Source of the DNA: an uncultured Chloroflexia bacterium | GTDB lineage: Bacteria; Chloroflexota; Anaerolineae; Anaerolineales; E44-bin32 | DNA length: 64,000 bases | Direction of reading: 5' to 3' | NCBI GenBank assembly: GCA_963743255.1 | Contig: CAVUPD010000001.1 | Location: 122,854-186,853, forward strand | In this document: one piece after another, positions 3,071 to 60,300 of the stretch | Layout: every line of letters starts with the position of its first letter | Numbering within the stretch: the first letter of the stretch is position 1 | The notes under the pieces: generated by a model | The model's input: the letters and a program-made list of their open reading frames with translations, nothing else | The model's database searches: none | Told to the model about the DNA's origin: nothing | Program-made: the position numbers and the translations under genes

Positions 3071-4105
3071 ATGCAAACTCCGACGCCCAGGTCCAACAGC
3101 GGCCCCCTGATCTTCGTCGCCATCGTGGGTGGCGGCGCCGTGCTTCTTCTGCTCGTCCTCGGGGCGTTCCTGCTCCTGCGGTCGCCGGCCGGCCCGAGCC
3201 CGGAGGAACTGCTGGCAACGGGCGCGGCGCAAACCGTCGCCGCCCAGCTGACGCAGGTCGCCATCCAGCAGACGATCGCGCCCCCGCCGCCGACCAATAC
3301 GTCCGGTCCGCCGACCGATACACCGCCGCCTCCGGCGACCGTCACCCCCACGCTTCCACCGATCACGTCGACGCCGGCGTGCACCGATCTGGCGGCGTTC
3401 GTGTCTGACGTGACGATCCCGGATAACACTTACATGCCGCCGTCGCAGGCCTTCACCAAGACCTGGCGGCTGAAGAACGCCGGCACGTGCACGTGGACGA
3501 CGGGTTACGCGCTGGTCTTCGACAGCGGCAACATCATGGGCGGCCCGACGTCGCAGAACCTGGCCGGCAACGTCCCGCCGGGTGCCAACGTCGACGTCTC
3601 CGTCAGCCTGGTCGCCCCGGGCGGCAACGGCACCCACCGCGGCAACTGGAAACTGCGCAACGACCGCGGTACGATCTTCGGCCTGGGCGGCGGCGGCCCG
3701 TTCTACCTGCAGATCATCGTCGGCCCGACGCCGACCTCCGGCCCGACGGTATACAAGACGGCGCAGTTCTACGTCCGGCAGACATACTACGGCGATCTCG
3801 ACGGCGGCACCGAAACGAGCACGGGGGCGGACTTCTGGTTCCACGCCGTCTCGGCCGTCGAAAAGTACATCGAGCCACAGAACGGGGCGAAGATGCTCAA
3901 GATGGGCGGGGTGCCGGACTACGACGCCTGCAAGGCCGCCGCTTTGAGCACCAGCGCCATAAACCTGAACACTTTCCCGGCCGGCAGCTGGATGTGCTAC
4001 AAGACCAACGACGGCCGCTACGGGCGGTTCACGCTGGACAGTTACAGCGATGTCGGCGGGACCAACGCGATGAACCTCGACATGCGCACGTGGAATAGCC
4101 CGTAG
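3071..4105 (+). CDS. membrane-anchored protein with NBR1-like (Ig-like) domain
   Basis: RBS AAGGAGAG lies upstream. It has an N-terminal TM helix (LIFVAIVGGGAVLLLLVLGAFLLL) and a Pro/Thr linker. The domain reads CTDLAAFVSDVTIPDNT...FTKTWRLKNAGTCTWTTGYALVF...HRGNWKLRN, typical of bacterial NBR1/FW-like domains. Function is unknown. Confidence 0.7.
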   Translation: MQTPTPRSNSGPLIFVAIVGGGAVLLLLVLGAFLLLRSPAGPSPEELLATGAAQTVAAQLTQVAIQQTIAPPPPTNTSGPPTDTPPPPATVTPTLPPITSTPACTDLAAFVSDVTIPDNTYMPPSQAFTKTWRLKNAGTCTWTTGYALVFDSGNIMGGPTSQNLAGNVPPGANVDVSVSLVAPGGNGTHRGNWKLRNDRGTIFGLGGGGPFYLQIIVGPTPTSGPTVYKTAQFYVRQTYYGDLDGGTETSTGADFWFHAVSAVEKYIEPQNGAKMLKMGGVPDYDACKAAALSTSAINLNTFPAGSWMCYKTNDGRYGRFTLDSYSDVGGTNAMNLDMRTWNSP

Positions 4106-4199: not shown

Positions 4200-5246
4200 A
4201 TGCGGTTCTGGATGAACTCTCTCGTCAGAATCTCCATCCGCCACTTGCTCGTCGCGCTGGTGCTACCTGCTTTAGCCGCCTGCAATTACGCGGGTTGGCA
4301 GGTCTCCCGCCGACCCGCGCCCGTCGAGAGCCCAACGTCTCCCCCACTCGCCACGCTGCCCACACCGCAAGCCTCGGACTGTATTGAAGAGTTGACCGTC
4401 TTGAGCGAGTCGGGATACCCGGACGCTTCGCCCGCCAGCGCGGGAGCGATCGTGGAGCGCGTCTGGCACGTGCGCAACTCCGGCACCTGTGCCTGGACGA
4501 CCGCGTACACCCTCGTCCCCGTCGAAGGCGTCTCGTTCGGTCTGGACGCGATCGCGCTTGCCGATCCGGTCGCGCCGGGGGGGCAGACCGACCTGCACCT
4601 GATGCTCACCGCCCCGGACGACCCCGGCCTGCACGCTGGAGGCTGGGCGCTCCGGTCGCCCAGTGGGGCACTGCTCGGCGCCGGCAGCCGCCCGCTGCGC
4701 GTGCGCATCAACGTCGGACCCGTGCCGACCCAGCCGAGCACGGAGATCTACAACTTCGCCGAGCAGATGTGCAGCGCCGGCTGGGTGGCTGCATCACCCT
4801 CGCGCCCTGGGCGGCTGCTCCCATGCCCCGGATACGATCGCGATTCGGGAGGATCGGTGACGCGCCTGGAGGCGCCGCGCTTCTCCAATGGCGCGCTGGA
4901 CGACGAACCGGCGCTGATCCTGCACCCGCCGTTCGAGGACGGCGGGCTGATCAGCGGGACCTTCCCTGCCACCAACGTGCAGGCCGGCGATCAATTCCGC
5001 GTCATTCTGGGGTGCAGCGCTGATGCACCCGGGTGTTCCGCCCGGTTTCAGTTGAACGTGCGGGAGGGCGAGTTGCTCTCCCCCGTGGCCGAATGGCTCG
5101 TCAACGAGGACCAGGCGCCGCGCAACCTGGTGGTCGATCTCTCGTTTCTGGCCGGGCGGACGGTCGAGTTCGTGCTCGGTGTCGACGCCGACGGGTCGGG
5201 CGCTGCCGACGCCGCCCTCTGGCTCCAGCCGCGGCTCGTGCGTTGA
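4200..5246 (+). CDS. lipoprotein with NBR1-like domain (paralogue of the preceding gene's domain)
   Basis: Signal plus lipobox LLVALVLPALAAC. The domain reads VERVWHVRNSGTCAWTTAYTLVPV...HAGGWALRSPSG, with the same C-x-W-T pattern as 3071..4105. The start (4176, 4200 or 4212) is uncertain. Confidence 0.7.
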   Translation: MRFWMNSLVRISIRHLLVALVLPALAACNYAGWQVSRRPAPVESPTSPPLATLPTPQASDCIEELTVLSESGYPDASPASAGAIVERVWHVRNSGTCAWTTAYTLVPVEGVSFGLDAIALADPVAPGGQTDLHLMLTAPDDPGLHAGGWALRSPSGALLGAGSRPLRVRINVGPVPTQPSTEIYNFAEQMCSAGWVAASPSRPGRLLPCPGYDRDSGGSVTRLEAPRFSNGALDDEPALILHPPFEDGGLISGTFPATNVQAGDQFRVILGCSADAPGCSARFQLNVREGELLSPVAEWLVNEDQAPRNLVVDLSFLAGRTVEFVLGVDADGSGAADAALWLQPRLVR

Positions 5247-55274: not shown

Positions 55275-55696
55275 AGGGCGAGTTGCGCCTGAAGACATAT
55301 CCTTGCGAGGTATTACGCAAGGGCGCGGGCAATCTTCGTCTGGGCAAGTGGGTGACAGGCAGGCCCGGTCGGAGCGCGGAGGGCGGGGATGCGATGCCTC
55401 CCTGCCCTCAAATTGCGTTGGCCGAGCGTCGAGCCAACCCGAGGACCGATCGCCGGGCGCAGGGACCTGATCCCTGGTATCGTCACTCCATCGCAATCAC
55501 CGGCGCCGGGGCGACGACCGGAGTACCCGGTTCGGCTTTAGTGACACGTCGGACCCAGCTGTCGTGCCGTCGATCCGGGCGATAGTGGTCGATCAAAGGA
55601 GCACACCTTGGCCCCGTTTGCGGACCCGTGCTCGCGGGAGTTGAAGGTACCCTCATCAGGCCGGATGATACACTTGTCGCCTCCCGGGAGGCTCGT

Positions 55697-57076
55697 ATGA
55701 CCCGTCGCCTGCTCCCGTTGCTCCTCCTGCTCCCCGCCCTATCGCTTGCCGCCGCCCCGCGCCCGTCGATTCGCGTGGCGGATGCGCAGGCCGTTCTGCA
55801 CTTCCCGGACTCCATCGACTTCACGCTCCAGGCGACGAGCACCGACCCGATCGTCACGGCCGAGGTGGAGTACGGCCTCGAAACCGCCTCATGCGCCACC
55901 GACATCAACCGCGCCAGACCGGAAGACTATGAGCCGGCGGGGGCGATCGACGTGCAGTGGACCTGGGACATGCGCCAGACCGGATCGCTGCCGCCCGGCG
56001 CACGCCTGTGGTGGCGCTGGCACCTGGTCGACTCGACGGGCCAGGAGCTGCGCACGACGACCGAGATGGTCACCTGGCTTGATGACGTGCACGCCTGGCA
56101 GACTCTGACCGACGGCACACTGTCGCTGCACACCTACAACGCCACGCCCGCCATGGCCCGCCAGCTCCTTGACGCGGCAGTGGGCGGCGCCAAACGGCTG
56201 CAAACGCAACTCGGCTCGCTGCCGGCCGACCAGGTCAACCTCTACATCTACGACAGCACGCAGGCGATGGCCGACGCCATCCTGTTCGAACCGCAATGGA
56301 CCGGAGGCATGGCCTTCCCCGAATACCGCACGATCATCCTCGGCATCGGCGAAAGCGATCTCGAATGGGGATTGAAGGCCGTCGCCCACGAACTTGCCCA
56401 CGTGGTGGTCGGCAACCTAGTCAGCGCCTGCTACAGCCGGCTGCCCACCTGGCTCAGCGAAGGCCTGGCGATGGTCGCCGAGGGCGGGCTGGACGCCGAA
56501 TCGCAGCGCATGCTCGATCAAGCGCTGCAGGACGACACGTTTTACCCGGTGCGCGCTCTGAGCGACGGGTTCACCGAGGACCCGGGCGGTGCGTCGCTGG
56601 CCTACGCTCAATCCTACAGCCTGGTGACTTACTTGCTCGAGGCGCACGGCCGCGAACGCCTGCTCGGCCTTCTCGACGCGGCACAGGCCGGGTCTCGTCC
56701 GGATGCCGCCCTGGCTGAGGTGTACGGCTTCGACACGGACGGTCTCGACCGCGCCTGGCGCCAGTGGATCGGTGCACCGCCACTCCCCGCCGAGTCGTCC
56801 GACGCCGGATCCACCCCGACCGTCATGCCGACTTATCAGCCGCTGGCCGGGCCGCCGCTGGCGATCACCGCCACGCCTGTCCCCTATCAGCCGCCTCCTC
56901 AACCGCAGCCGTCGGGAGCGTCGGATAAGTCGTGGTGGCGAACGATCGCCCTCTCGGCTGCCATCGGCATCTGCATGGGGCTCCTCGTCACGGCCGTGCT
57001 CGTGGCGGTCATCATCGTGGTCCTCGTGCGACGCCGTCGACGGCAGCCGCCGGCGGGAGGTGACCGCCATGCGTAA
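55697..57076 (+). CDS. MA-clan zinc metallopeptidase (peptidase_MA-like) with C-terminal membrane anchor
   Basis: RBS GGGAGG. Signal peptide LLPLLLLLPALSLAAA. The motif is HELAHVVVG...WLSEGLAMVAEG (HExxH plus a downstream Glu). The C-terminal TM helix is followed by RRRRRQ. Confidence 0.75.
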   Translation: MTRRLLPLLLLLPALSLAAAPRPSIRVADAQAVLHFPDSIDFTLQATSTDPIVTAEVEYGLETASCATDINRARPEDYEPAGAIDVQWTWDMRQTGSLPPGARLWWRWHLVDSTGQELRTTTEMVTWLDDVHAWQTLTDGTLSLHTYNATPAMARQLLDAAVGGAKRLQTQLGSLPADQVNLYIYDSTQAMADAILFEPQWTGGMAFPEYRTIILGIGESDLEWGLKAVAHELAHVVVGNLVSACYSRLPTWLSEGLAMVAEGGLDAESQRMLDQALQDDTFYPVRALSDGFTEDPGGASLAYAQSYSLVTYLLEAHGRERLLGLLDAAQAGSRPDAALAEVYGFDTDGLDRAWRQWIGAPPLPAESSDAGSTPTVMPTYQPLAGPPLAITATPVPYQPPPQPQPSGASDKSWWRTIALSAAIGICMGLLVTAVLVAVIIVVLVRRRRRQPPAGGDRHA

Positions 57077-59132
57077 CATGCGGCTGGTCATCCCGCTCGT
57101 GCTCACCGTCTCGATCCTTGCCGCCTGTGGTCCGCTGGCGCCTCCCCCCGCACCTACCGCCGCGGCCGAGGCGACGCTTCCCCCGCCGGGTGCGTCGTAT
57201 CCTGTTCGCTACTACCACACCGAGATGCCCGTCTCATTCGAGCCGCCCGTCGGCTGGCAGGTCAGCGAAGACATCGACGGGTTGGCCCTGGCGGAGATCA
57301 TGTCGCCCGACGGCACGCAGAGCATCCTGATCACCGCCGGCACGCCCGCCCTCAACTCCGATGCGCAGGACGAGAACCTGCAAGCGGTTCGCACCTGGCT
57401 GGGATCGAGCGCGGAGGCAGACGACGAGGGTGTCGTGGAATTCGACAGCGGCGAGGCCGGCTACCTGCGCCGCGGCCGGGGCGCAGACTCGTCAACCTGG
57501 GCCGTCGCAACCTACGTCGATCCCGAGGTCACCCTGCACCTGCTCTACGCCGCGCCGCAGTCTGCAGCCAAGTCTTCCTACACGGCGTTCACGGCTTCGG
57601 TCCGCAGCCTGCGCATCGAGCCGACAGATCCCGTCGAAGTCGATCGCACCACGACCTTGTCACTCGATGCCGGCGAGGCCGAGGAGCTCGATCCCGCCTT
57701 GACACACGTCGGGCCGTCCGGTGCCATCGGCGACCTGTTCCGCGGGTTGGTCGTCCTCGACCCCAGCCTTCGGATCCGCCCGGCGCTTGCCGAACGCTGG
57801 GAGGTCAGCCCCGACGGCGCGATCTACACCTTCTTCCTCAACCCGCAGGCGCGTTTCCACAACGCCCGGCCGGTGACGGCCGAAGATGTGATCTTCTCGT
57901 GGGAGCGCGCAGCCTCTCCGGATCTCGCCTCGCCGACGGTAATGACCTACATGGGCGATATCGCCGGGTTGGCCGCCTTCCATGCAGGGCAGGCTTCGTC
58001 GATCACCGGAGTCGAGGTTCTCGACGAGCGGACGCTGCGGGTGACGCTTGAGACGCCCCGCCCGACATTCCTGTACAAGCTTGCCTACCCGGTTTCGTGG
58101 ATCGTCGATCGAGACAACGTCGGCTTCCCCGACTGGGAGCAGCACCCCAACGGCACCGGTCCGTTCCGCGTCCTGCAACACCTCCGCGACCAGGTGCTGC
58201 TGCTCGAGTCGAATCCATGGTTCTACGGCAGTACTCCGGCCATAGAACACCTCCGCTACCTGATGTACGCCGGAAACACACAGCAGTTGTACGAGCAGGG
58301 CGAAGTCGACCAGGCCTGGGTGACGCTCGATCAGATGAGCCGGGTCGAAGACCCGGGCGACGGGCTGTACGGCACCTTGATGGCCGAGCCTTCGATGTGC
58401 ACCCACTACATCACCCTGAACACGGCCGAGCCGCCCTTCGATGACCCGAAGGTGCGCCGGGCGTTCGCCCTGGCCGTCGACCGCGAGCGCTACGTCGAGG
58501 CGCTAACCAACGGCGAAGATCGGGCCGCCCGCGGCCTACTGCCGCCGGGCATGCCCGGCTACGGCGCGGCGCTCGTGCCGCCATCCTTCGATCCTCAGGC
58601 GGCGCAGGCACTCCTGGCCGAGTCGAGCTACGGCCCGGGAGGGCTGCCCGAGATCGTGTGGACGGTGGCAACCTCCGGCGGGTGGGCGTCGGGAACAGTG
58701 GCCTTCCTGGCCGACACCTGGGAGCGCGAGCTAGGGGTCGAGATACAGCTCGAGGGCATCGACTGGCAGGACTACTACAAGCGACTGGACGCCGGAGACT
58801 ACGGCCAGATCGTATTCGAGGGCTGGTGTGCCGACTACCCGGACCCGGAGAACTTCCTCGAAGCACTGTTCCATTCCGGATCGGCGCAAAACCACGCGCG
58901 CTATGCCAGCCCCGAGTTCGACGCTCTGGTGGAGGCGGCACGCGTGGAGACCGAAACGGCCATACGGCTCGATCTGTACCGGCAGGCTGAGCAGCGGCTG
59001 CTGGATGATTCGCCGGCCATCTTCCTCAGCCACAGCGGCCCGTCGTACATGGTCTGGGATCCCTCAGTGGGCGGCTACCTGCCGGCAGCCATCGGCGTCC
59101 CGCAACACGCGGGGATGTGGATCGGGGAGTAG
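57069..59132 (+). CDS. ABC transporter substrate-binding lipoprotein, family 5 (peptide/nickel type), with ~190-aa N-terminal extension
   Basis: The ATG overlaps the upstream gene end. Lipobox ILAAC. The SBP_bac_5 core begins around LFRGLVVLDPSLRIRPALAERWEVSPDG and includes WCADYPDPENFL. Confidence 0.8.
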   Translation: MRNMRLVIPLVLTVSILAACGPLAPPPAPTAAAEATLPPPGASYPVRYYHTEMPVSFEPPVGWQVSEDIDGLALAEIMSPDGTQSILITAGTPALNSDAQDENLQAVRTWLGSSAEADDEGVVEFDSGEAGYLRRGRGADSSTWAVATYVDPEVTLHLLYAAPQSAAKSSYTAFTASVRSLRIEPTDPVEVDRTTTLSLDAGEAEELDPALTHVGPSGAIGDLFRGLVVLDPSLRIRPALAERWEVSPDGAIYTFFLNPQARFHNARPVTAEDVIFSWERAASPDLASPTVMTYMGDIAGLAAFHAGQASSITGVEVLDERTLRVTLETPRPTFLYKLAYPVSWIVDRDNVGFPDWEQHPNGTGPFRVLQHLRDQVLLLESNPWFYGSTPAIEHLRYLMYAGNTQQLYEQGEVDQAWVTLDQMSRVEDPGDGLYGTLMAEPSMCTHYITLNTAEPPFDDPKVRRAFALAVDRERYVEALTNGEDRAARGLLPPGMPGYGAALVPPSFDPQAAQALLAESSYGPGGLPEIVWTVATSGGWASGTVAFLADTWERELGVEIQLEGIDWQDYYKRLDAGDYGQIVFEGWCADYPDPENFLEALFHSGSAQNHARYASPEFDALVEAARVETETAIRLDLYRQAEQRLLDDSPAIFLSHSGPSYMVWDPSVGGYLPAAIGVPQHAGMWIGE

Positions 59133-59207: not shown

Positions 59208-59510
59208 CCGTTGGCGGTCCGGATTGATCCCGCCTTGCAGGGCAGCTCAGCCTGCCGCGGCCGCCGCCAGATTGACCGGCCGTGCAGCAACCCAGCTCCA
59301 GCCGGGTACGAGTGCGCCGAGGCGAAGGCTTCGCGGCCGCCGTCCCCTTGCCTGGGCCGCGGTGGTTTACCTCACATCAGCCCGCGCACTGCCGATCCGT
59401 GCGGCAGCCGCCGGTCTTCCTCACCGGCGCTTAAGGCCTGTGCCAATCAATCGGGGTAGACTAGGCGGACATCCGACGCCCCTTGCGGTGGGTGTCGGTC
59501 GAGGTAGGAA

Positions 59511-60092
59511 ATGTACACACAGGGTAGTGTTCCGGCGCGGCCGGGGCTTTCGCTAGCTCTGGCTGCACTTCTAAGTGGCTTTTTGCTCGGTGGCTGCGCT
59601 GCTGGGAAAGACGGCTTGGCCGTTGGTGATGCCGCTCCGGACTTCGAGCTTCCCTCGACGTCCGGCGAACTGGTCGGCCTTTCGGACTATCGGGGTCGGC
59701 CGGTCTTACTCCTCTTCCACATGGCGGTGGGTTGAGCGCCTTGTCTACAGCAGGTGGTCGACCTGCAAACCGATCCGGCGTACCAGGCACTTGGCGTTCC
59801 CGTCGTAAGCATCGCCTTCGACACCCTCGAGGAGCAGTCAGCCGCGGCACAGGAGCTGGGCATCACGGCCTTCCCGATGTTATCCGACGCGGATCATTCG
59901 GTCTCAACCGCGTATCAAGTCCTGCAGTGGGCTGTGGGCACTGGCGAGCCGGGGCATACGTTCATCCTGGTCGGCGCCGACGGCCGCATTGCCTGGCTGC
60001 AGGACTACGGTGCGCCGGACAACCCGAACCGAACGATGTACGTGCCGCTGGCCGAATTGACAGAGAAGGTGGGAGAGGCGGTGGGCAATTAG
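59511..60092 (+). CDS. AhpC/TSA-redoxin-family thiol:disulfide oxidoreductase lipoprotein with in-frame TGA at the CxxC position (candidate selenoprotein, U-A-P-C)
   Basis: Track ORFs 59511..59735 and 59754..60092 share one frame and are split only by TGA 59733-35. Read through: LGGC lipobox...DFELPSTSGELVGLSDYRGRPVLLLFHMAVG-U-APCLQQVVDLQ...GVPVVSIAFD...FPMLSDADHSV. A SECIS-like hairpin lies immediately downstream. Confidence 0.65.
59750..59766 (+). promoter_or_regulatory. SECIS-like hairpin GCAGGU-GGUCG-ACCUGC, 14 nt after the in-frame UGA
   Basis: Perfect 6-bp stem (59750-55 / 59761-66). The apical loop GGUCG starts 20 nt after the UGA. A GGUC-containing loop is also found in the E. coli fdhF SECIS. 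Confidence 0.5.
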
Positions 60093-60216
60093 CTGCTAGC
60101 GACTAGCGACTAGCGGCTGGCAACTGGCGACTAGCGAACAGCGGTCAGCGGGTGGCGATTGGCGGTCAGCGAATCGCGGTCGGCTACTCGTGAAGGGCGA
60201 CTTGAGATTGGCGATT
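60091..60216 (+). repeat. heptanucleotide tandem array (about 18 units, RGCGNNN) starting at the TAG stop of the redoxin gene
   Basis: AGCTGCT AGCGACT AGCGACT AGCGGCT GGCAACT GGCGACT AGCGAAC AGCGGTC AGCGGGT GGCGATT GGCGGTC AGCGAAT CGCGGTC GGCTACT ... GGCGACT ... GGCGATT, all in one 7-nt phase. Confidence 0.75.
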
Positions 60217-60300
60217 GGTGATGGGCATGAATGCGCTGGTGGGAGCACATGGTTGCCAGATGCTATCTGCCAGTTGGCTCCAACTACCCTATCGCGCTTC

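What the first reader, a model, noticed from the sequence alone, without database searches (positions are those of the whole stretch)
59511..60092. In-frame TGA at the CxxC position of a redoxin lipoprotein with a SECIS-like hairpin: candidate selenoprotein
Track ORFs 59511..59735 and 59754..60092 are in the same frame, separated by a single TGA (59733-35). Read-through gives a 193-codon AhpC/TSA-redoxin-fold lipoprotein.

The TGA sits exactly where the family has the first Cys of CxxC: ...LLLFHMAVG-U-APCLQQVVDLQ... This gives the motif U-A-P-C.

Fourteen nt downstream a perfect hairpin forms, GCAGGU/ACCUGC with loop GGUCG. The loop begins 20 nt after the UGA and contains GGUC, as does the E. 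coli fdhF SECIS loop.

Prx-like thiol:disulfide oxidoreductases are known bacterial selenoprotein families. Standard gene callers would split this gene, and Sec use in this lineage would be notable.
Basis: partly seen in the sequence, partly recalled or inferred. Interest (0 to 1): 0.65.

Follow-up and report, generated by a model that had tools for sequence, protein, structure and literature searches.

The report
Selenocysteine redoxin lipoprotein gene, mis-split
The in-frame TGA is almost certainly a selenocysteine codon in a membrane-anchored, peroxiredoxin-like redox protein that is conserved across Chloroflexota and is cut in two by gene callers, but it belongs to a selenoprotein family that is already known.

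Summary
TGA 59733-35 joins two same-frame ORFs into a 193-codon lipoprotein, and one AhpC/TSA domain spans the TGA. A 6-bp hairpin with loop GGUCG starts 14 nt downstream.

Taken alone, the hairpin is not statistically unusual in this 66% GC DNA. The comparative evidence is decisive:
- All 80 species-representative Chloroflexota genomes fetched (50-97% identity) carry TGA at this codon.
- All 80 have a hairpin in the same register.
- Two stem pairs switch G-C/A-U with no half-changed intermediates.
- Synonymous sites are frozen only inside the stem.
- More distant homologues have Cys at this position (CxxC).
- TGA is the normal stop codon in the window.

The hairpin meets the published bacterial SECIS model. 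This rules out a sequencing error, a pseudogene and a reassigned code.

By the field's own definition (pfam00578 plus UxxC), the protein belongs to the known "Prx-like thiol:disulfide oxidoreductase" selenoprotein family. Chloroflexota are already known to use Sec, so the lineage is not notable.

I could not check selA, selB, selD or tRNA-Sec in this genome. They are absent from the window. A related genome has three candidate selenoprotein genes in a row.

Verdict: a genuine selenoprotein gene and a new member of a known kind. Its main value is as an annotation fix.

The parts
59511..60092 (+). Complete selenoprotein coding sequence: 193 codons including Sec75, then a TAG stop. It is currently split into two ORFs (59511-59735 and 59754-60092).
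   Evidence: Translation. The Pfam AhpC-TSA domain spans the TGA. tblastn matches to 80 genomes cover residues on both sides of the TGA.
59501..59509 (+). Shine-Dalgarno-like GAGGTAGGA just upstream of the ATG at 59511.
   Evidence: Read directly from the sequence. This is inference only.
59511..59597 (+). Lipoprotein signal peptide ending in the lipobox L-G-G-C29. The Cys codon is at 59595-59597.
   Evidence: Sequence. A hydrophobic region followed by [GAS]-C occurs 43-66 residues before Sec in 82 of 83 homologues. It is a canonical lipobox in 72 of them.
59622..59996 (+). AhpC/TSA (peroxiredoxin-fold) domain, residues 38-162.
   Evidence: Pfam PF00578 E=1.4e-23 and PF08534 E=8.8e-17. An AF2 model of a homologue has pLDDT 88, and its best PDB matches are peroxiredoxins.
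59733..59735 (+). UGA, read as selenocysteine 75. It is the first position of the U-A-P-C redox motif.
   Evidence: TGA at this codon in 80 of 80 genome loci, in L002 and in the window. Distant homologues have Cys here. In the model this is the last residue before the helix, which is the canonical CxxC site.
59742..59744 (+). Cys78 (TGT), the second residue of UxxC. It aligns with the peroxidatic Cys of peroxiredoxins.
   Evidence: Invariant in 82 of 82 sequences. Alignment to Bcp 5enu and to Etrx 2yp6.
59750..59766 (+). SECIS hairpin: stem 59750-55 paired with 59761-66 (6 bp), apical loop GGUCG at 59756-60.
   Evidence: The hairpin alone folds at -8.9 kcal/mol. Across 82 homologues 96% of stem cells are paired, with 31 double changes and no single-sided changes at two pairs. 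Synonymous sites are frozen only here. It meets the published bSECIS constraints.
59955..59957 (+). His149, invariant in the family. It occupies the position of the catalytic Arg of peroxiredoxins.
   Evidence: Invariant column H149. It aligns with Arg of the RSTF motif in 5enu. A role in the active site is inferred, not shown.

Best explanation
Window 59511-60092 is one gene for a selenocysteine-containing lipoprotein with a peroxiredoxin-like fold. It would be anchored on the outer face of the cytoplasmic membrane.

Recoding. During translation, UGA75 is read as Sec rather than stop. The mRNA hairpin 14 nt downstream (59750-59766, with G-U in its apical loop) acts as a bacterial SECIS. It recruits SelB carrying GTP and Sec-tRNA(Sec) to the ribosome.

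Protein. After export and lipidation at Cys29, the mature protein carries a U-x-x-C centre at the N-terminus of the first helix of the thioredoxin/peroxiredoxin fold. The selenolate of Sec75 is the attacking nucleophile. Cys78 resolves the intermediate by forming a selenenylsulfide.

Likely function. I think it most likely acts as a thiol:disulfide oxidoreductase or reductant outside the cytoplasm, in the manner of TlpA, ResA or Etrx. It is not a classical peroxidase, because the Pro, Thr and Arg of the peroxiredoxin catalytic site are replaced by Met, Sec and His.

Shown versus inferred.
- Shown: the gene is a single unit, the UGA and the hairpin are under selection, the position is Cys in homologues, the protein has the peroxiredoxin fold, and it has a lipoprotein signal.
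- Inferred: decoding as Sec by SelB, the chemistry, the substrate, and any link to metal export.
For: 1. TGA is at the same codon in 80 of 80 species-representative genomes of Chloroflexota (Anaerolineae, Ca. Limnocylindria and others) at 50-97% protein identity. A metagenome contig and the window also have it.

2. The hairpin is in the same register in all of them.
- 96.3% of stem cells are paired, against 10-38% when the partner is slid.
- Pair 27-37 is G-C in 58 sequences and A-U in 20. Pair 28-36 is A-U in 67 and G-C in 11. Neither has any one-sided change.
- On a tree there are about 6 and 5 independent switches.

3. Synonymous sites are frozen only in the stem. Ile is ATC in 71 of 71 sequences and Leu is only CTG or TTG. 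The third position of the loop Val is free: G 31, T 31, C 19, A 1.

4. The hairpin meets the bSECIS model: loop of 3-9 nt, stem of 4-16 bp, G in the first two loop positions, 16-37 nt from the UGA, and MFE of -7.5 kcal/mol or lower. The criteria are from PMC13188914.

5. Homologues with TGC or TGT have CxxC at this site. Examples are P0100 (CAPC) and P0136-P0198 (EG[LIV]xCxxCW). The one Cys homologue whose DNA I read lacks the hairpin.

6. TGA is the usual stop codon here. It ends 37 of 53 genes in the window and 25 of 83 genes of this family.

8. The lipobox is present in 82 of 83 homologues.

9. In related locus L017 the gene is followed by rhodanese-like and DsbA-like genes. Each has an in-frame TGA in its catalytic motif, and Pfam domains span both TGAs.

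10. SelB and Sec-containing formate dehydrogenases are reported in Anaerolineales (PMC4959059).
Against: - No selA, selB, selD or tRNA-Sec is present in the 64-kb window or in about 480 kb of flanks of related loci. The rest of this genome could not be searched, so the Sec machinery is unverified for this organism.
- The hairpin is not unusual by single-sequence folding statistics.
- The peptide QQ[IV]VDL is itself conserved, so part of the hairpin's sequence conservation comes from the protein. The covariation and synonymous-site tests address this but rest on only two variable pairs.
- One homologue (L001) truly has TGG (Trp) at the site. This shows that a form without Sec or Cys can exist.
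- No redox partner (CcdA/DsbD, thioredoxin reductase) is a conserved neighbour. The proposed function therefore rests on homology alone.
- No NCBIfam model reaches its cut-off.
Confidence: 0.88

Rival explanations
1. Hairpin-assisted read-through of UGA by a standard tRNA (for example Trp or Cys near-cognate decoding), not selenocysteine. The protein would be a 1-Cys or ordinary CxxC redoxin made at low level.
For: One homologue carries a genuine TGG at the site. The base after UGA is C in nearly all members, which from general knowledge is a leaky context. The Sec machinery is not demonstrated for this genome.
Against: No such conserved mechanism is known in bacteria. The hairpin has the position, size and loop G-U of SelB-dependent SECIS elements. 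The site is the nucleophilic Cys in homologues, which is the classic Sec/Cys pair. If Trp or Cys were wanted, TGG or TGC would be one mutation away, yet 80 of 80 genomes keep TGA. A relative has three such genes in a row in known selenoprotein families.
Confidence: 0.05
2. Sequencing or assembly error, or a recent pseudogene. The true codon would be TGC, TGT or TGG, and the gene is either ordinary or dead.
For: A single base separates TGA from TGC, TGT and TGG. One metagenomic homologue has TGG.
Against: The same TGA occurs in 80 independent assemblies from different species and technologies. Purifying selection is visible on both sides of it, in the conserved domain and in synonymous variation elsewhere in the gene.
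Confidence: 0.01
3. Genome-wide reassignment of TGA (genetic code 4 or 25), so that TGA simply means Trp or Gly here.
For: Some public gene calls translate this TGA as W (P0015, P0025).
Against: Those W residues are artefacts of the gene caller, because the DNA reads TGA. TGA ends 37 of 53 well-supported genes in the window and 25 of 83 genes of this family. The genome is 66% GC Chloroflexota.
Confidence: 0.01
4. Two separate products: a short secreted N-terminal lipopeptide ending at the TGA, and an independently initiated C-terminal fragment.
For: Gene callers find a GTG, TTG or CTG start a few codons after the TGA in many homologues.
Against: The single AhpC/TSA domain would be cut through its active site. 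The C-terminal piece would lack its signal peptide and its beta1 strand. The supposed start codons vary in type and position. The frame is preserved across the TGA in all 80 genomes.
Confidence: 0.02

Closest known systems
Prx-like thiol:disulfide oxidoreductase selenoprotein family (pfam00578; UxxC/UxxU; type member WP_010940744.1 of Geobacter sulfurreducens; Kryukov & Gladyshev 2004, Zhang et al. 2005/2006)
   Same: It has an AhpC/TSA (pfam00578) domain that is distantly related to peroxiredoxins. It has a thioredoxin-like UxxC motif where Sec-peroxiredoxins have TxxU. This is exactly how the family is described in PMC1088965 and tabulated in PMC9312934 and PMC13188914. Its Cys homologues have CxxC, and its bSECIS lies immediately downstream.
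   Different: The known members are mainly from Deltaproteobacteria, Clostridia and marine metagenomes. This is a Chloroflexota clade of lipoproteins with its own signature: FHMAxG-U-PPC-[LM]QQ[IV]VDL, an invariant GH[TS]F and a DYGAP motif. I could not compare it directly with the type member. No NCBIfam model captures it.
Extracytoplasmic thioredoxin-like lipoproteins and anchored reductases: ResA (B. subtilis), TlpA, Etrx1/Etrx2 (S. pneumoniae; PDB 2yp6, 4hqz)
   Same: It is membrane-anchored outside the cytoplasm. Its CxxC-type centre aligns residue for residue, with U on the first Cys of WCGPC. These proteins are among the best sequence matches in the PDB (E about 1e-8 to 1e-5).
   Different: Those proteins use Cys and have the compact TlpA-type fold. 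Here the best structural matches are peroxiredoxins. The ResA NCBIfam score of 44.7 is far below the cut-off of 170. There are no cytochrome-maturation or CcdA neighbours.
Peroxiredoxins of the BCP/PrxQ, AhpE and AhpC types, including the Sec-containing PrxU (TxxU)
   Same: It has the same fold (Foldseek E about 1e-11, TM about 0.7) and the same Pfam family. Cys78 aligns with the peroxidatic Cys.
   Different: The catalytic Pro, Thr and Arg are replaced by Met71, Sec75 and His149. Sec sits at the Thr position, not at the peroxidatic position as in PrxU.
E. coli fdhF SECIS element
   Same: It is a hairpin just 3' of the UGA inside the coding region, with a small apical loop containing G-U. The window's loop GGUCG even shares GGUC with fdhF.
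   Different: The G-U lies at nucleotides 25-26 from the U of UGA, against 23-24 in fdhF. The family consensus is a plain 7-bp stem with a 3-nt GUN loop and no bulged U.

Membership tests
Bacterial selenoprotein gene (Sec-UGA plus bSECIS) | In-frame UGA conserved at the same codon in orthologues | tested here: met
   80 of 80 genome loci, L002 and the window have TGA. One metagenome contig has TGG.
Bacterial selenoprotein gene (Sec-UGA plus bSECIS) | Cys-containing homologues with Cys aligned to the UGA | tested here: met
   P0100 has CAPC, with TGC in its DNA. P0136, P0137, P0138, P0150, P0161, P0167 and others have CxxC.
Bacterial selenoprotein gene (Sec-UGA plus bSECIS) | Stem-loop that meets the bSECIS model: loop 3-9 nt, upper stem 4-16 bp, G in the first two loop positions, 16-37 nt from the UGA, MFE of -7.5 kcal/mol or lower | tested here: met
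   In the window the loop is 5 nt (GGUCG), the stem is 6 bp, the spacing is 20 nt and the MFE is -8.9 to -10.4 kcal/mol. In the family consensus the loop is GUN, the stem is 7 bp and the spacing is 21 nt. A minority (the CAA/TTG variant) folds at only -6.9. The criteria are from PMC13188914. bSECISearch itself was not run.
Bacterial selenoprotein gene (Sec-UGA plus bSECIS) | The hairpin is under selection as RNA (covariation) | tested here: met
   There are 31 double changes and no single changes at two pairs. 0 of 500 shuffles reach the observed score, and the slid controls are far lower. About 11 independent switches occur on the tree. Synonymous-site entropy is 0 to 0.8 in the stem against 1.2 to 2.4 elsewhere.
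Bacterial selenoprotein gene (Sec-UGA plus bSECIS) | selA, selB, selD and tRNA-Sec in the same genome | tested here: inconclusive
   None is present in the 64-kb window or in the flanks of 82 related loci (ARAGORN, Rfam, tblastn with the E. coli proteins). SelB is reported in Anaerolineales (PMC4959059).
Bacterial selenoprotein gene (Sec-UGA plus bSECIS) | Selenium actually incorporated at the UGA | not testable with these tools
   This needs 75Se labelling or mass spectrometry.
Prx-like thiol:disulfide oxidoreductase selenoprotein family | pfam00578 (AhpC-TSA) domain | tested here: met
   E=1.4e-23, 83.6 bits against a cut-off of 26.
Prx-like thiol:disulfide oxidoreductase selenoprotein family | Thioredoxin-like UxxC motif in place of the TxxC/TxxU of peroxiredoxins | tested here: met
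   U-A-P-C in the window and U-P-P-C in the family. U aligns with the Thr of the Bcp TPGC motif and with the first Cys of the Etrx CGPC motif.
Prx-like thiol:disulfide oxidoreductase selenoprotein family | Detectable homology or orthology to the type member WP_010940744.1 | not tested
   That sequence could not be retrieved with the tools.
Canonical peroxiredoxin (AhpC/BCP/PrxQ) | Catalytic PxxxTxxC motif plus a conserved Arg | tested here: not met
   Pro is replaced by Met71, Thr by Sec75 and Arg by His149. Only the Cys is kept (alignment to 5enu; invariant columns). All NCBIfam peroxiredoxin equivalogs score far below their cut-offs.
Canonical peroxiredoxin (AhpC/BCP/PrxQ) | Peroxiredoxin fold | tested here: met
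   The AF2 model has pLDDT 88.4. The top 50 Foldseek PDB hits are all peroxiredoxins, Bcp or AhpE.
ResA/TlpA-type extracytoplasmic thiol-disulfide oxidoreductase | Family model score, and genomic link to cytochrome c maturation or CcdA | tested here: not met
   NF002854 scores 44.7 bits against a cut-off of 170. No CcdA, ResB or ResC is among the immediate neighbours of 77 and 76 loci.
Bacterial lipoprotein | Signal peptide with a lipobox Cys | tested here: met
   LLGG-C29 in the window. There is a canonical [LVI][ASTVI][GAS]C in 72 homologues and a close variant (LQAC, LPAC, LMAC, GSGC) in 10. The only exception is truncated at a contig end. No dedicated predictor was run.
SCO1/SenC copper chaperone | PF02630 domain with CxxxC plus a distal His | tested here: not met
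   Pfam gives no SCO1-SenC hit at E of 0.01 or lower. The motif spacing is UxxC, not CxxxC.

The most novel reading that the evidence does not exclude
This Chloroflexota-wide clade may be more than another Prx-like disulfide reductase. It could be a functionally distinct, selenol-based protein that handles metals outside the cytoplasm.

Its active site assembles soft-metal ligands that no peroxiredoxin or TlpA has together: His70-Met71, Sec75, Cys78 and the invariant His149, which replaces the catalytic Arg. In roughly a fifth of genomes the gene sits directly beside a heavy-metal (CopA-type, HMA-domain) P-type ATPase. In one case it sits beside merA, merR and a cytochrome c.

It might receive, reduce or detoxify exported Cu(I) or Hg, or keep the Cys pairs of Cu sites reduced. 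That would make it a new functional class of selenoprotein that no curated family model currently covers.
Probability: 0.12. Interest if true: 0.6.

Novelty: new member of a known kind. Interest (0 to 1): 0.35.

Why it matters
Annotation. This gene and well over a hundred database clusters of its relatives are stored as 110-117 aa fragments labelled "peroxiredoxin" or "redoxin domain-containing protein". A few are stored with a false Trp at the Sec position. Recognising the Sec codon restores a complete exported redox enzyme. It also adds a widespread, well-supported family to the selenoproteome of Anaerolineae and Limnocylindria, which are abundant in soils, sediments, fresh water and wastewater.

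A benchmark. The family's SECIS is unusually clean: a 7-bp stem with a GUN loop and perfect covariation. It could serve as a test case for bacterial SECIS models.

Biology. It indicates that these bacteria spend selenium on redox chemistry outside the cytoplasm. The recurrent link to metal-exporting ATPases gives a testable lead on function.

Limits. It does not change what is known about how Sec decoding works or which phyla use it.

Tried and rejected
- Single-sequence folding statistics for the hairpin were not significant in this GC-rich context. I rejected them as evidence either way.
- An Rfam gathering scan and ARAGORN on the window found nothing.
- tblastn with E. coli SelA, SelB and SelD, and ARAGORN on the window plus 82 loci, found no Sec machinery.
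- I looked for a Chloroflexota SelA to use as a stepping stone, via tblastn on the plasmid collection. It returned only Proteobacteria, Firmicutes, Actinomycetota and Gemmatimonadota. I judged further blind protein searches unlikely to reach the right genomes and did not run them.
- Looking up the source contig returned only a 2.4-kb Logan contig without DNA.
I modelled the homologue P0015 instead, which has W at the site.
- The BSepDB supplements are not held and Haft & Tolstoy 2025 is not held. I therefore could not check whether this exact clade is already catalogued.
- Generic scans for other in-frame-TGA genes were dominated by out-of-frame noise. Only the two L017 genes survived inspection.
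- The 'W' seen in P0015 and P0025 first suggested a Trp/Sec alternation. Reading the P0015 DNA showed a TGA translated with code 4. P0025's DNA was not read, so the same explanation for it is inferred. Only L001 is a real TGG.
- I considered a conserved operon partner and rejected it. The immediate neighbours are heterogeneous apart from the P-type ATPase subset.
- A possible second pairing, GGCGG/CCGCC bracketing the UGA, was noticed by eye but does not hold across homologues. I did not pursue it.
Full report
**What is in the window**

Reading 59300-60300 confirms the finding's description exactly.
- An ATG at 59511, preceded by GAGGTAGGA, opens a frame that meets a single TGA at 59733-35. 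The frame then continues to a TAG at 60090-92.
- Read-through gives 193 residues...LLLFHMAVG-U-APCLQQVVDLQ....
- The mechanical ORF list shows the two pieces as 59511-59735 and 59754-60092.
- With Cys placed at the TGA, Pfam AhpC-TSA matches residues 38-162 (E=1.4e-23) and Redoxin matches 38-166. One domain is therefore cut by the TGA.
- The hairpin is GCAGGT (59750-55), GGTCG (59756-60) and ACCTGC (59761-66). It starts 14 nt after the TGA.

The window is 63-69% GC. In that background the hairpin's context folds no better than shuffled sequence: z = -0.39 for 76 nt and -0.22 for 43 nt. Only the isolated 17-mer stands out, at -8.9 kcal/mol and z = -2.9. The single sequence therefore proves nothing.

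**Homologues settle the TGA**

A protein search with the read-through sequence gave 325 hits.
- All but three of the best 120 are 108-122 aa proteins covering only the last 55-64% of the query.
- Their sources name them "peroxiredoxin", "redoxin domain-containing protein" or "hypothetical protein", mostly from Anaerolineae and other Chloroflexi MAGs.
- That is the signature of a gene cut at a conserved stop codon.

Two apparently full-length hits, plus the 122-aa P0025, which starts just upstream of the site, showed W at the position.
- Reading the P0015 DNA showed a TGA that a gene caller had translated with code 4. P0025's DNA was not read, so the same explanation for it is inferred.
- P0007 (locus L001) is a genuine TGG.

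A scan of one genome per GTDB species returned 187 confirmed matches, of which 80 loci were kept. They range from 50% to 97% identity and are almost all Chloroflexota MAGs.
- They are labelled Anaerolineae, Anaerolineales, Aggregatilineaceae, Thermoflexus, Phototrophicaceae and "Chloroflexia".
- One is Ca. Aquidulcis, which belongs to class Ca. Limnocylindria.
- In every one of the 80 the codon aligned with the window's TGA is TGA, within the signature FHMAxG-U-PPC-[LM]QQ[IV]VDL.

This excludes a sequencing error and a pseudogene.

Code reassignment is excluded as well.
- 37 of 53 genes picked by third-position GC in the window end in TGA.
- 25 of 83 genes of this family end in TGA.

**The position is Cys in deeper homologues**

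P0100 is 46-48% identical and has C-A-P-C, encoded by TGC.

An exhaustive search of 1.84 billion cluster representatives with the C-terminal ORF found only 198 relatives at E of 0.001 or lower.
- The full-length ones are largely anchored by an N-terminal transmembrane segment.
- They carry [FY][FHQ]EG[LIV]xCxxCW, or CxxCL as in P0167 and P0194, at the site.

This is the Sec/Cys pair that defines selenoprotein families.

**The hairpin is selected as RNA**

I aligned 57 nt around the TGA from 82 sequences; no gaps were needed. A hairpin sits in the same register everywhere: GCA[G/A][A/G]UC - GUN - GA[U/C][C/U]UGC.

Counting pairs:
- 96.3% of cells are paired, against 9.5-38% when the 3' arm is slid by 1-3 nt.
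- Pair 27-37 is G-C in 58 distinct sequences and A-U in 20.
- Pair 28-36 is A-U in 67 and G-C in 11.
- Neither pair has a single G-U or mismatch.
- 0 of 500 column shuffles reach the observed covariation score.

The first switch couples synonymous Gln CAG/CAA with synonymous Leu CTG/TTG. The second couples Ile/Val (ATC/GTC) with synonymous Asp GAT/GAC.

I built a neighbour-joining tree from the protein with the hairpin region removed. Fitch parsimony on it needs about 6 and 5 independent switches.

Codon-level entropy shows the constraint is local.

| Position | Codon usage | Entropy |
|---|---|---|
| Stem Ile | ATC 71/71 | 0 |
| Other Ile columns | mixed | 1.2-1.5 |
| Stem Leu | only CTG or TTG | 0.8 |
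| Other Leu columns | mixed | 1.5-2.4 |
| Loop Val, third base | G 31, T 31, C 19, A 1 | free |

Two further context features are conserved. The Gly codon before the UGA is restricted to GGY. The base after the UGA is C everywhere except in the window's clade, where it is G.

The window and its three closest relatives (L003-L005) have GTG GTC instead of GTC GTG. This shortens the stem to 6 bp and enlarges the loop to GGUCG.

Two controls agree with this picture.
- The only Cys homologue whose DNA I read has no complementarity in this register.
- The TGG homologue has lost two basal pairs and gained a wobble, and it no longer folds into the hairpin.
- Each control rests on a single sequence.

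**Fit to the SECIS model**

A 2026 review gives the consensus constraints (PMC13188914): apical loop 3-9 nt, upper stem 4-16 bp, G in one of the first two loop positions (usually followed by G or U), 16-37 nt between UGA and loop, and MFE of -7.5 kcal/mol or lower.

| Feature | Window | Family consensus |
|---|---|---|
| Loop | 5 nt, GGU... | 3 nt, GUN |
| Stem | 6 bp | 7 bp |
| UGA-to-loop spacing | 20 nt | 21 nt |
| MFE (kcal/mol) | -8.9 to -10.4 | -9.6, or -6.9 for the CAA/TTG variant |

In E. coli fdhF, fetched for comparison, the loop is GGUC with G23 U24. Here the G-U is at positions 25-26.

**The protein**

Lipoprotein signal. The N-terminus has a charged n-region, a hydrophobic stretch and LLGG-C29. 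A hydrophobic stretch ending in [GAS]-C lies 43-66 residues before Sec in 82 of 83 homologues. The one exception is truncated by a contig end.

Fold and active-site position.
- The model has pLDDT 88.4.
- The Sec position is the last residue between strand 52-57 and helix 64-75, which is the canonical CxxC location.
- The top Foldseek PDB matches are all peroxiredoxins (Prx4, PrxIII, AhpC2, AhpE, Bcp), at E about 1e-11 and TM about 0.7.

Sequence matches. The best PDB matches by sequence are a Bcp-type protein (5enu), the pneumococcal surface thioredoxin lipoproteins Etrx1 and Etrx2 (2yp6, 4hqz) and ResA.
- U aligns with the first Cys of Etrx W-C-G-P-C.
- U aligns with the Thr of the peroxiredoxin T-P-G-C motif.
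- Cys78 aligns with the peroxidatic Cys.
- The invariant His149 aligns with the catalytic Arg.
- The peroxiredoxin Pro is Met71 here.

The protein is therefore peroxiredoxin-fold but is not a canonical peroxiredoxin. No NCBIfam model reaches its cut-off. ResA scores 44.7 against 170, and SelL-related, PrxU and WAxxUGC give weak hits.

**Genomic context**

In the window the neighbours are:
- a Peptidase_MA_2 protein and an SBP_bac_5 lipoprotein upstream;
- a response regulator on the opposite strand and a phosphodiesterase-family protein downstream.

Across the related loci the immediate neighbours are heterogeneous.
- The one recurrent partner is a heavy-metal P-type ATPase (HMA plus E1-E2). 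It is directly upstream and co-directional in 12-13 loci and downstream in 3-5.
- A cytochrome c follows in four loci.
- L001 has merA and merR beside the gene.
- No CcdA/DsbD or thioredoxin reductase is linked.

**Sec machinery**

The window has no tRNA genes at all and no Rfam hits. tblastn with E. coli SelA, SelB and SelD found nothing in the window or in the 82 loci. I could not search the rest of the genome. This is the main gap. Two things reduce it.
- In L017, on a 1.73-Mb contig of a Chloroflexia MAG, the redoxin is followed on the same strand by two more genes. One is a membrane-anchored rhodanese-like gene with an in-frame TGA (motif Y-C-T-U). The other is a DsbA-like gene with an in-frame TGA (motif DYQ-U-PYC). 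Pfam Rhodanese and Thioredoxin_4/DSBA domains span these TGAs. Both match known selenoprotein families, the rhodanese CxU form and the DsbA-like UxxC form (PMC9312934).
- Anaerolineales single-cell genomes and A. thermophila UNI-1 are reported to encode the Sec-specific elongation factor, and some have Sec-containing formate dehydrogenases (PMC4959059).

**Comparison with what is known**

The literature defines prokaryotic selenoprotein families by domain plus Sec motif. [quoted passage not shown] - It has been known since 2004-2006 in Geobacter, Syntrophus, Desulfotalea and marine metagenomes (PMC1794560).
- The window's protein meets both defining features.

Chloroflexota are established Sec users. 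Three selenoproteins were already counted in 2006. Dehalococcoidia genomes with 46-49 selenoproteins are in BSepDB, which surveyed 64,762 genomes including unnamed MAGs (PMC13326102). This clade may well already be in that database, but I could not check.

**Verdict**

- The selenoprotein reading is strongly supported at about 0.9. The remaining doubt is mostly the unverified machinery.
- The precise biochemical role is inferred.
- It is a new member, or at most a lineage-specific subfamily, of a known selenoprotein family in a phylum known to use Sec.
- Interest is moderate to low (0.35). It is valuable as an annotation correction and as a clean SECIS covariation example.
- The metal-ATPase association and the His/Met/Sec/Cys/His site are the only leads toward something new.

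Noticed in passing
L017:2902-5077 (contig CAWGNX010000002.1, 1.73 Mb, uncultured Chloroflexia MAG MFD09779.bin.1.231): Three consecutive same-strand genes each have an in-frame TGA in a catalytic motif. They are the redoxin (TGA at 3169, U-P-P-C), a TM-anchored rhodanese-like gene (TGA at 3889, Y-C-T-U) and a TM-anchored DsbA-like gene (TGA at 4625, DYQ-U-PYC). Pfam domains span the TGAs. The DsbA-like gene has a 6-bp hairpin (loop CGGGU) 25 nt downstream. This looks like an extracytoplasmic selenoprotein gene cluster.
   Followed up: partly
L009, L010, L012, L015, L021, L025, L032, L033, L036, L043, L045, L046, L074 (upstream); L014, L062, L065, L070, L075 (downstream): A heavy-metal P-type ATPase (HMA plus E1-E2_ATPase, CopA-like) lies directly next to the redoxin gene in roughly a fifth of the related genomes, usually upstream and co-directional. 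It is the only recurrent neighbour. A cation-transporting E1-E2 ATPase is itself a listed selenoprotein family (PMC5029168), but the ATPases here have no in-frame TGA.
   Followed up: partly
L001:145-4002 (SMUX01365537.1, metagenome GCA_004566075.1): This is the only homologue with a real TGG (Trp) at the Sec position. Its hairpin has decayed. It sits between merR and merA (mercuric reductase with an HMA domain) on one side and a cytochrome c and an HMA protein on the other.
   Followed up: partly
window:60096-60181: Immediately after the gene's TAG stop there is a tandem heptamer CTAGCGA x6 (60096-60137). It overlaps a 35-nt unit repeated twice (60112-60181). No terminator-like site was found there, and its function is unknown.
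   Followed up: no
P0015 (L002:314-862), P0025: Public protein collections contain versions of this gene with Trp at the Sec position. For P0015 the DNA shows a TGA that a gene caller translated with genetic code 4 on a short contig. P0025's DNA was not read, so the same cause is inferred for it. Such entries could mislead alignments into suggesting a Trp/Sec alternation.
   Followed up: partly
L056, L057, L071, L078: Typical family members occur on short contigs (4-9 kb) of MAGs labelled Desulfuromusa, Methanosarcinales archaeon and Nitrosomonadaceae. These are probably Chloroflexota contigs that were mis-binned rather than real occurrences in those taxa.
   Followed up: no
window:59730-59738 and the same columns of alignment A2: The local context of the UGA is conserved at synonymous sites. 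The preceding Gly codon is GGT or GGC in 81 of 82 sequences. The following codon is CCG or CCA (UGA-C) in most, and GCG (UGA-G) in the window's clade. This may tune termination against Sec insertion.
   Followed up: no
window:59721-59741: GGCGG, upstream of the UGA (in ATG GCG GTG), and CCGCC or GCGCC just after it could pair and place the UGA in a loop. The pairing is not maintained in homologues that have GCC or GCA Ala codons, so it is probably fortuitous.
   Followed up: no
window:55628-59132: Upstream of the gene are a Peptidase_MA_2 protein with a C-terminal TM segment and Pro-rich linker (55628-57076) and a 685-aa SBP_bac_5 solute-binding lipoprotein (about 57075-59132). These are ordinary exported proteins. 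The same SBP_bac_5 neighbour occurs in the closest relatives (L003-L005).
   Followed up: partly
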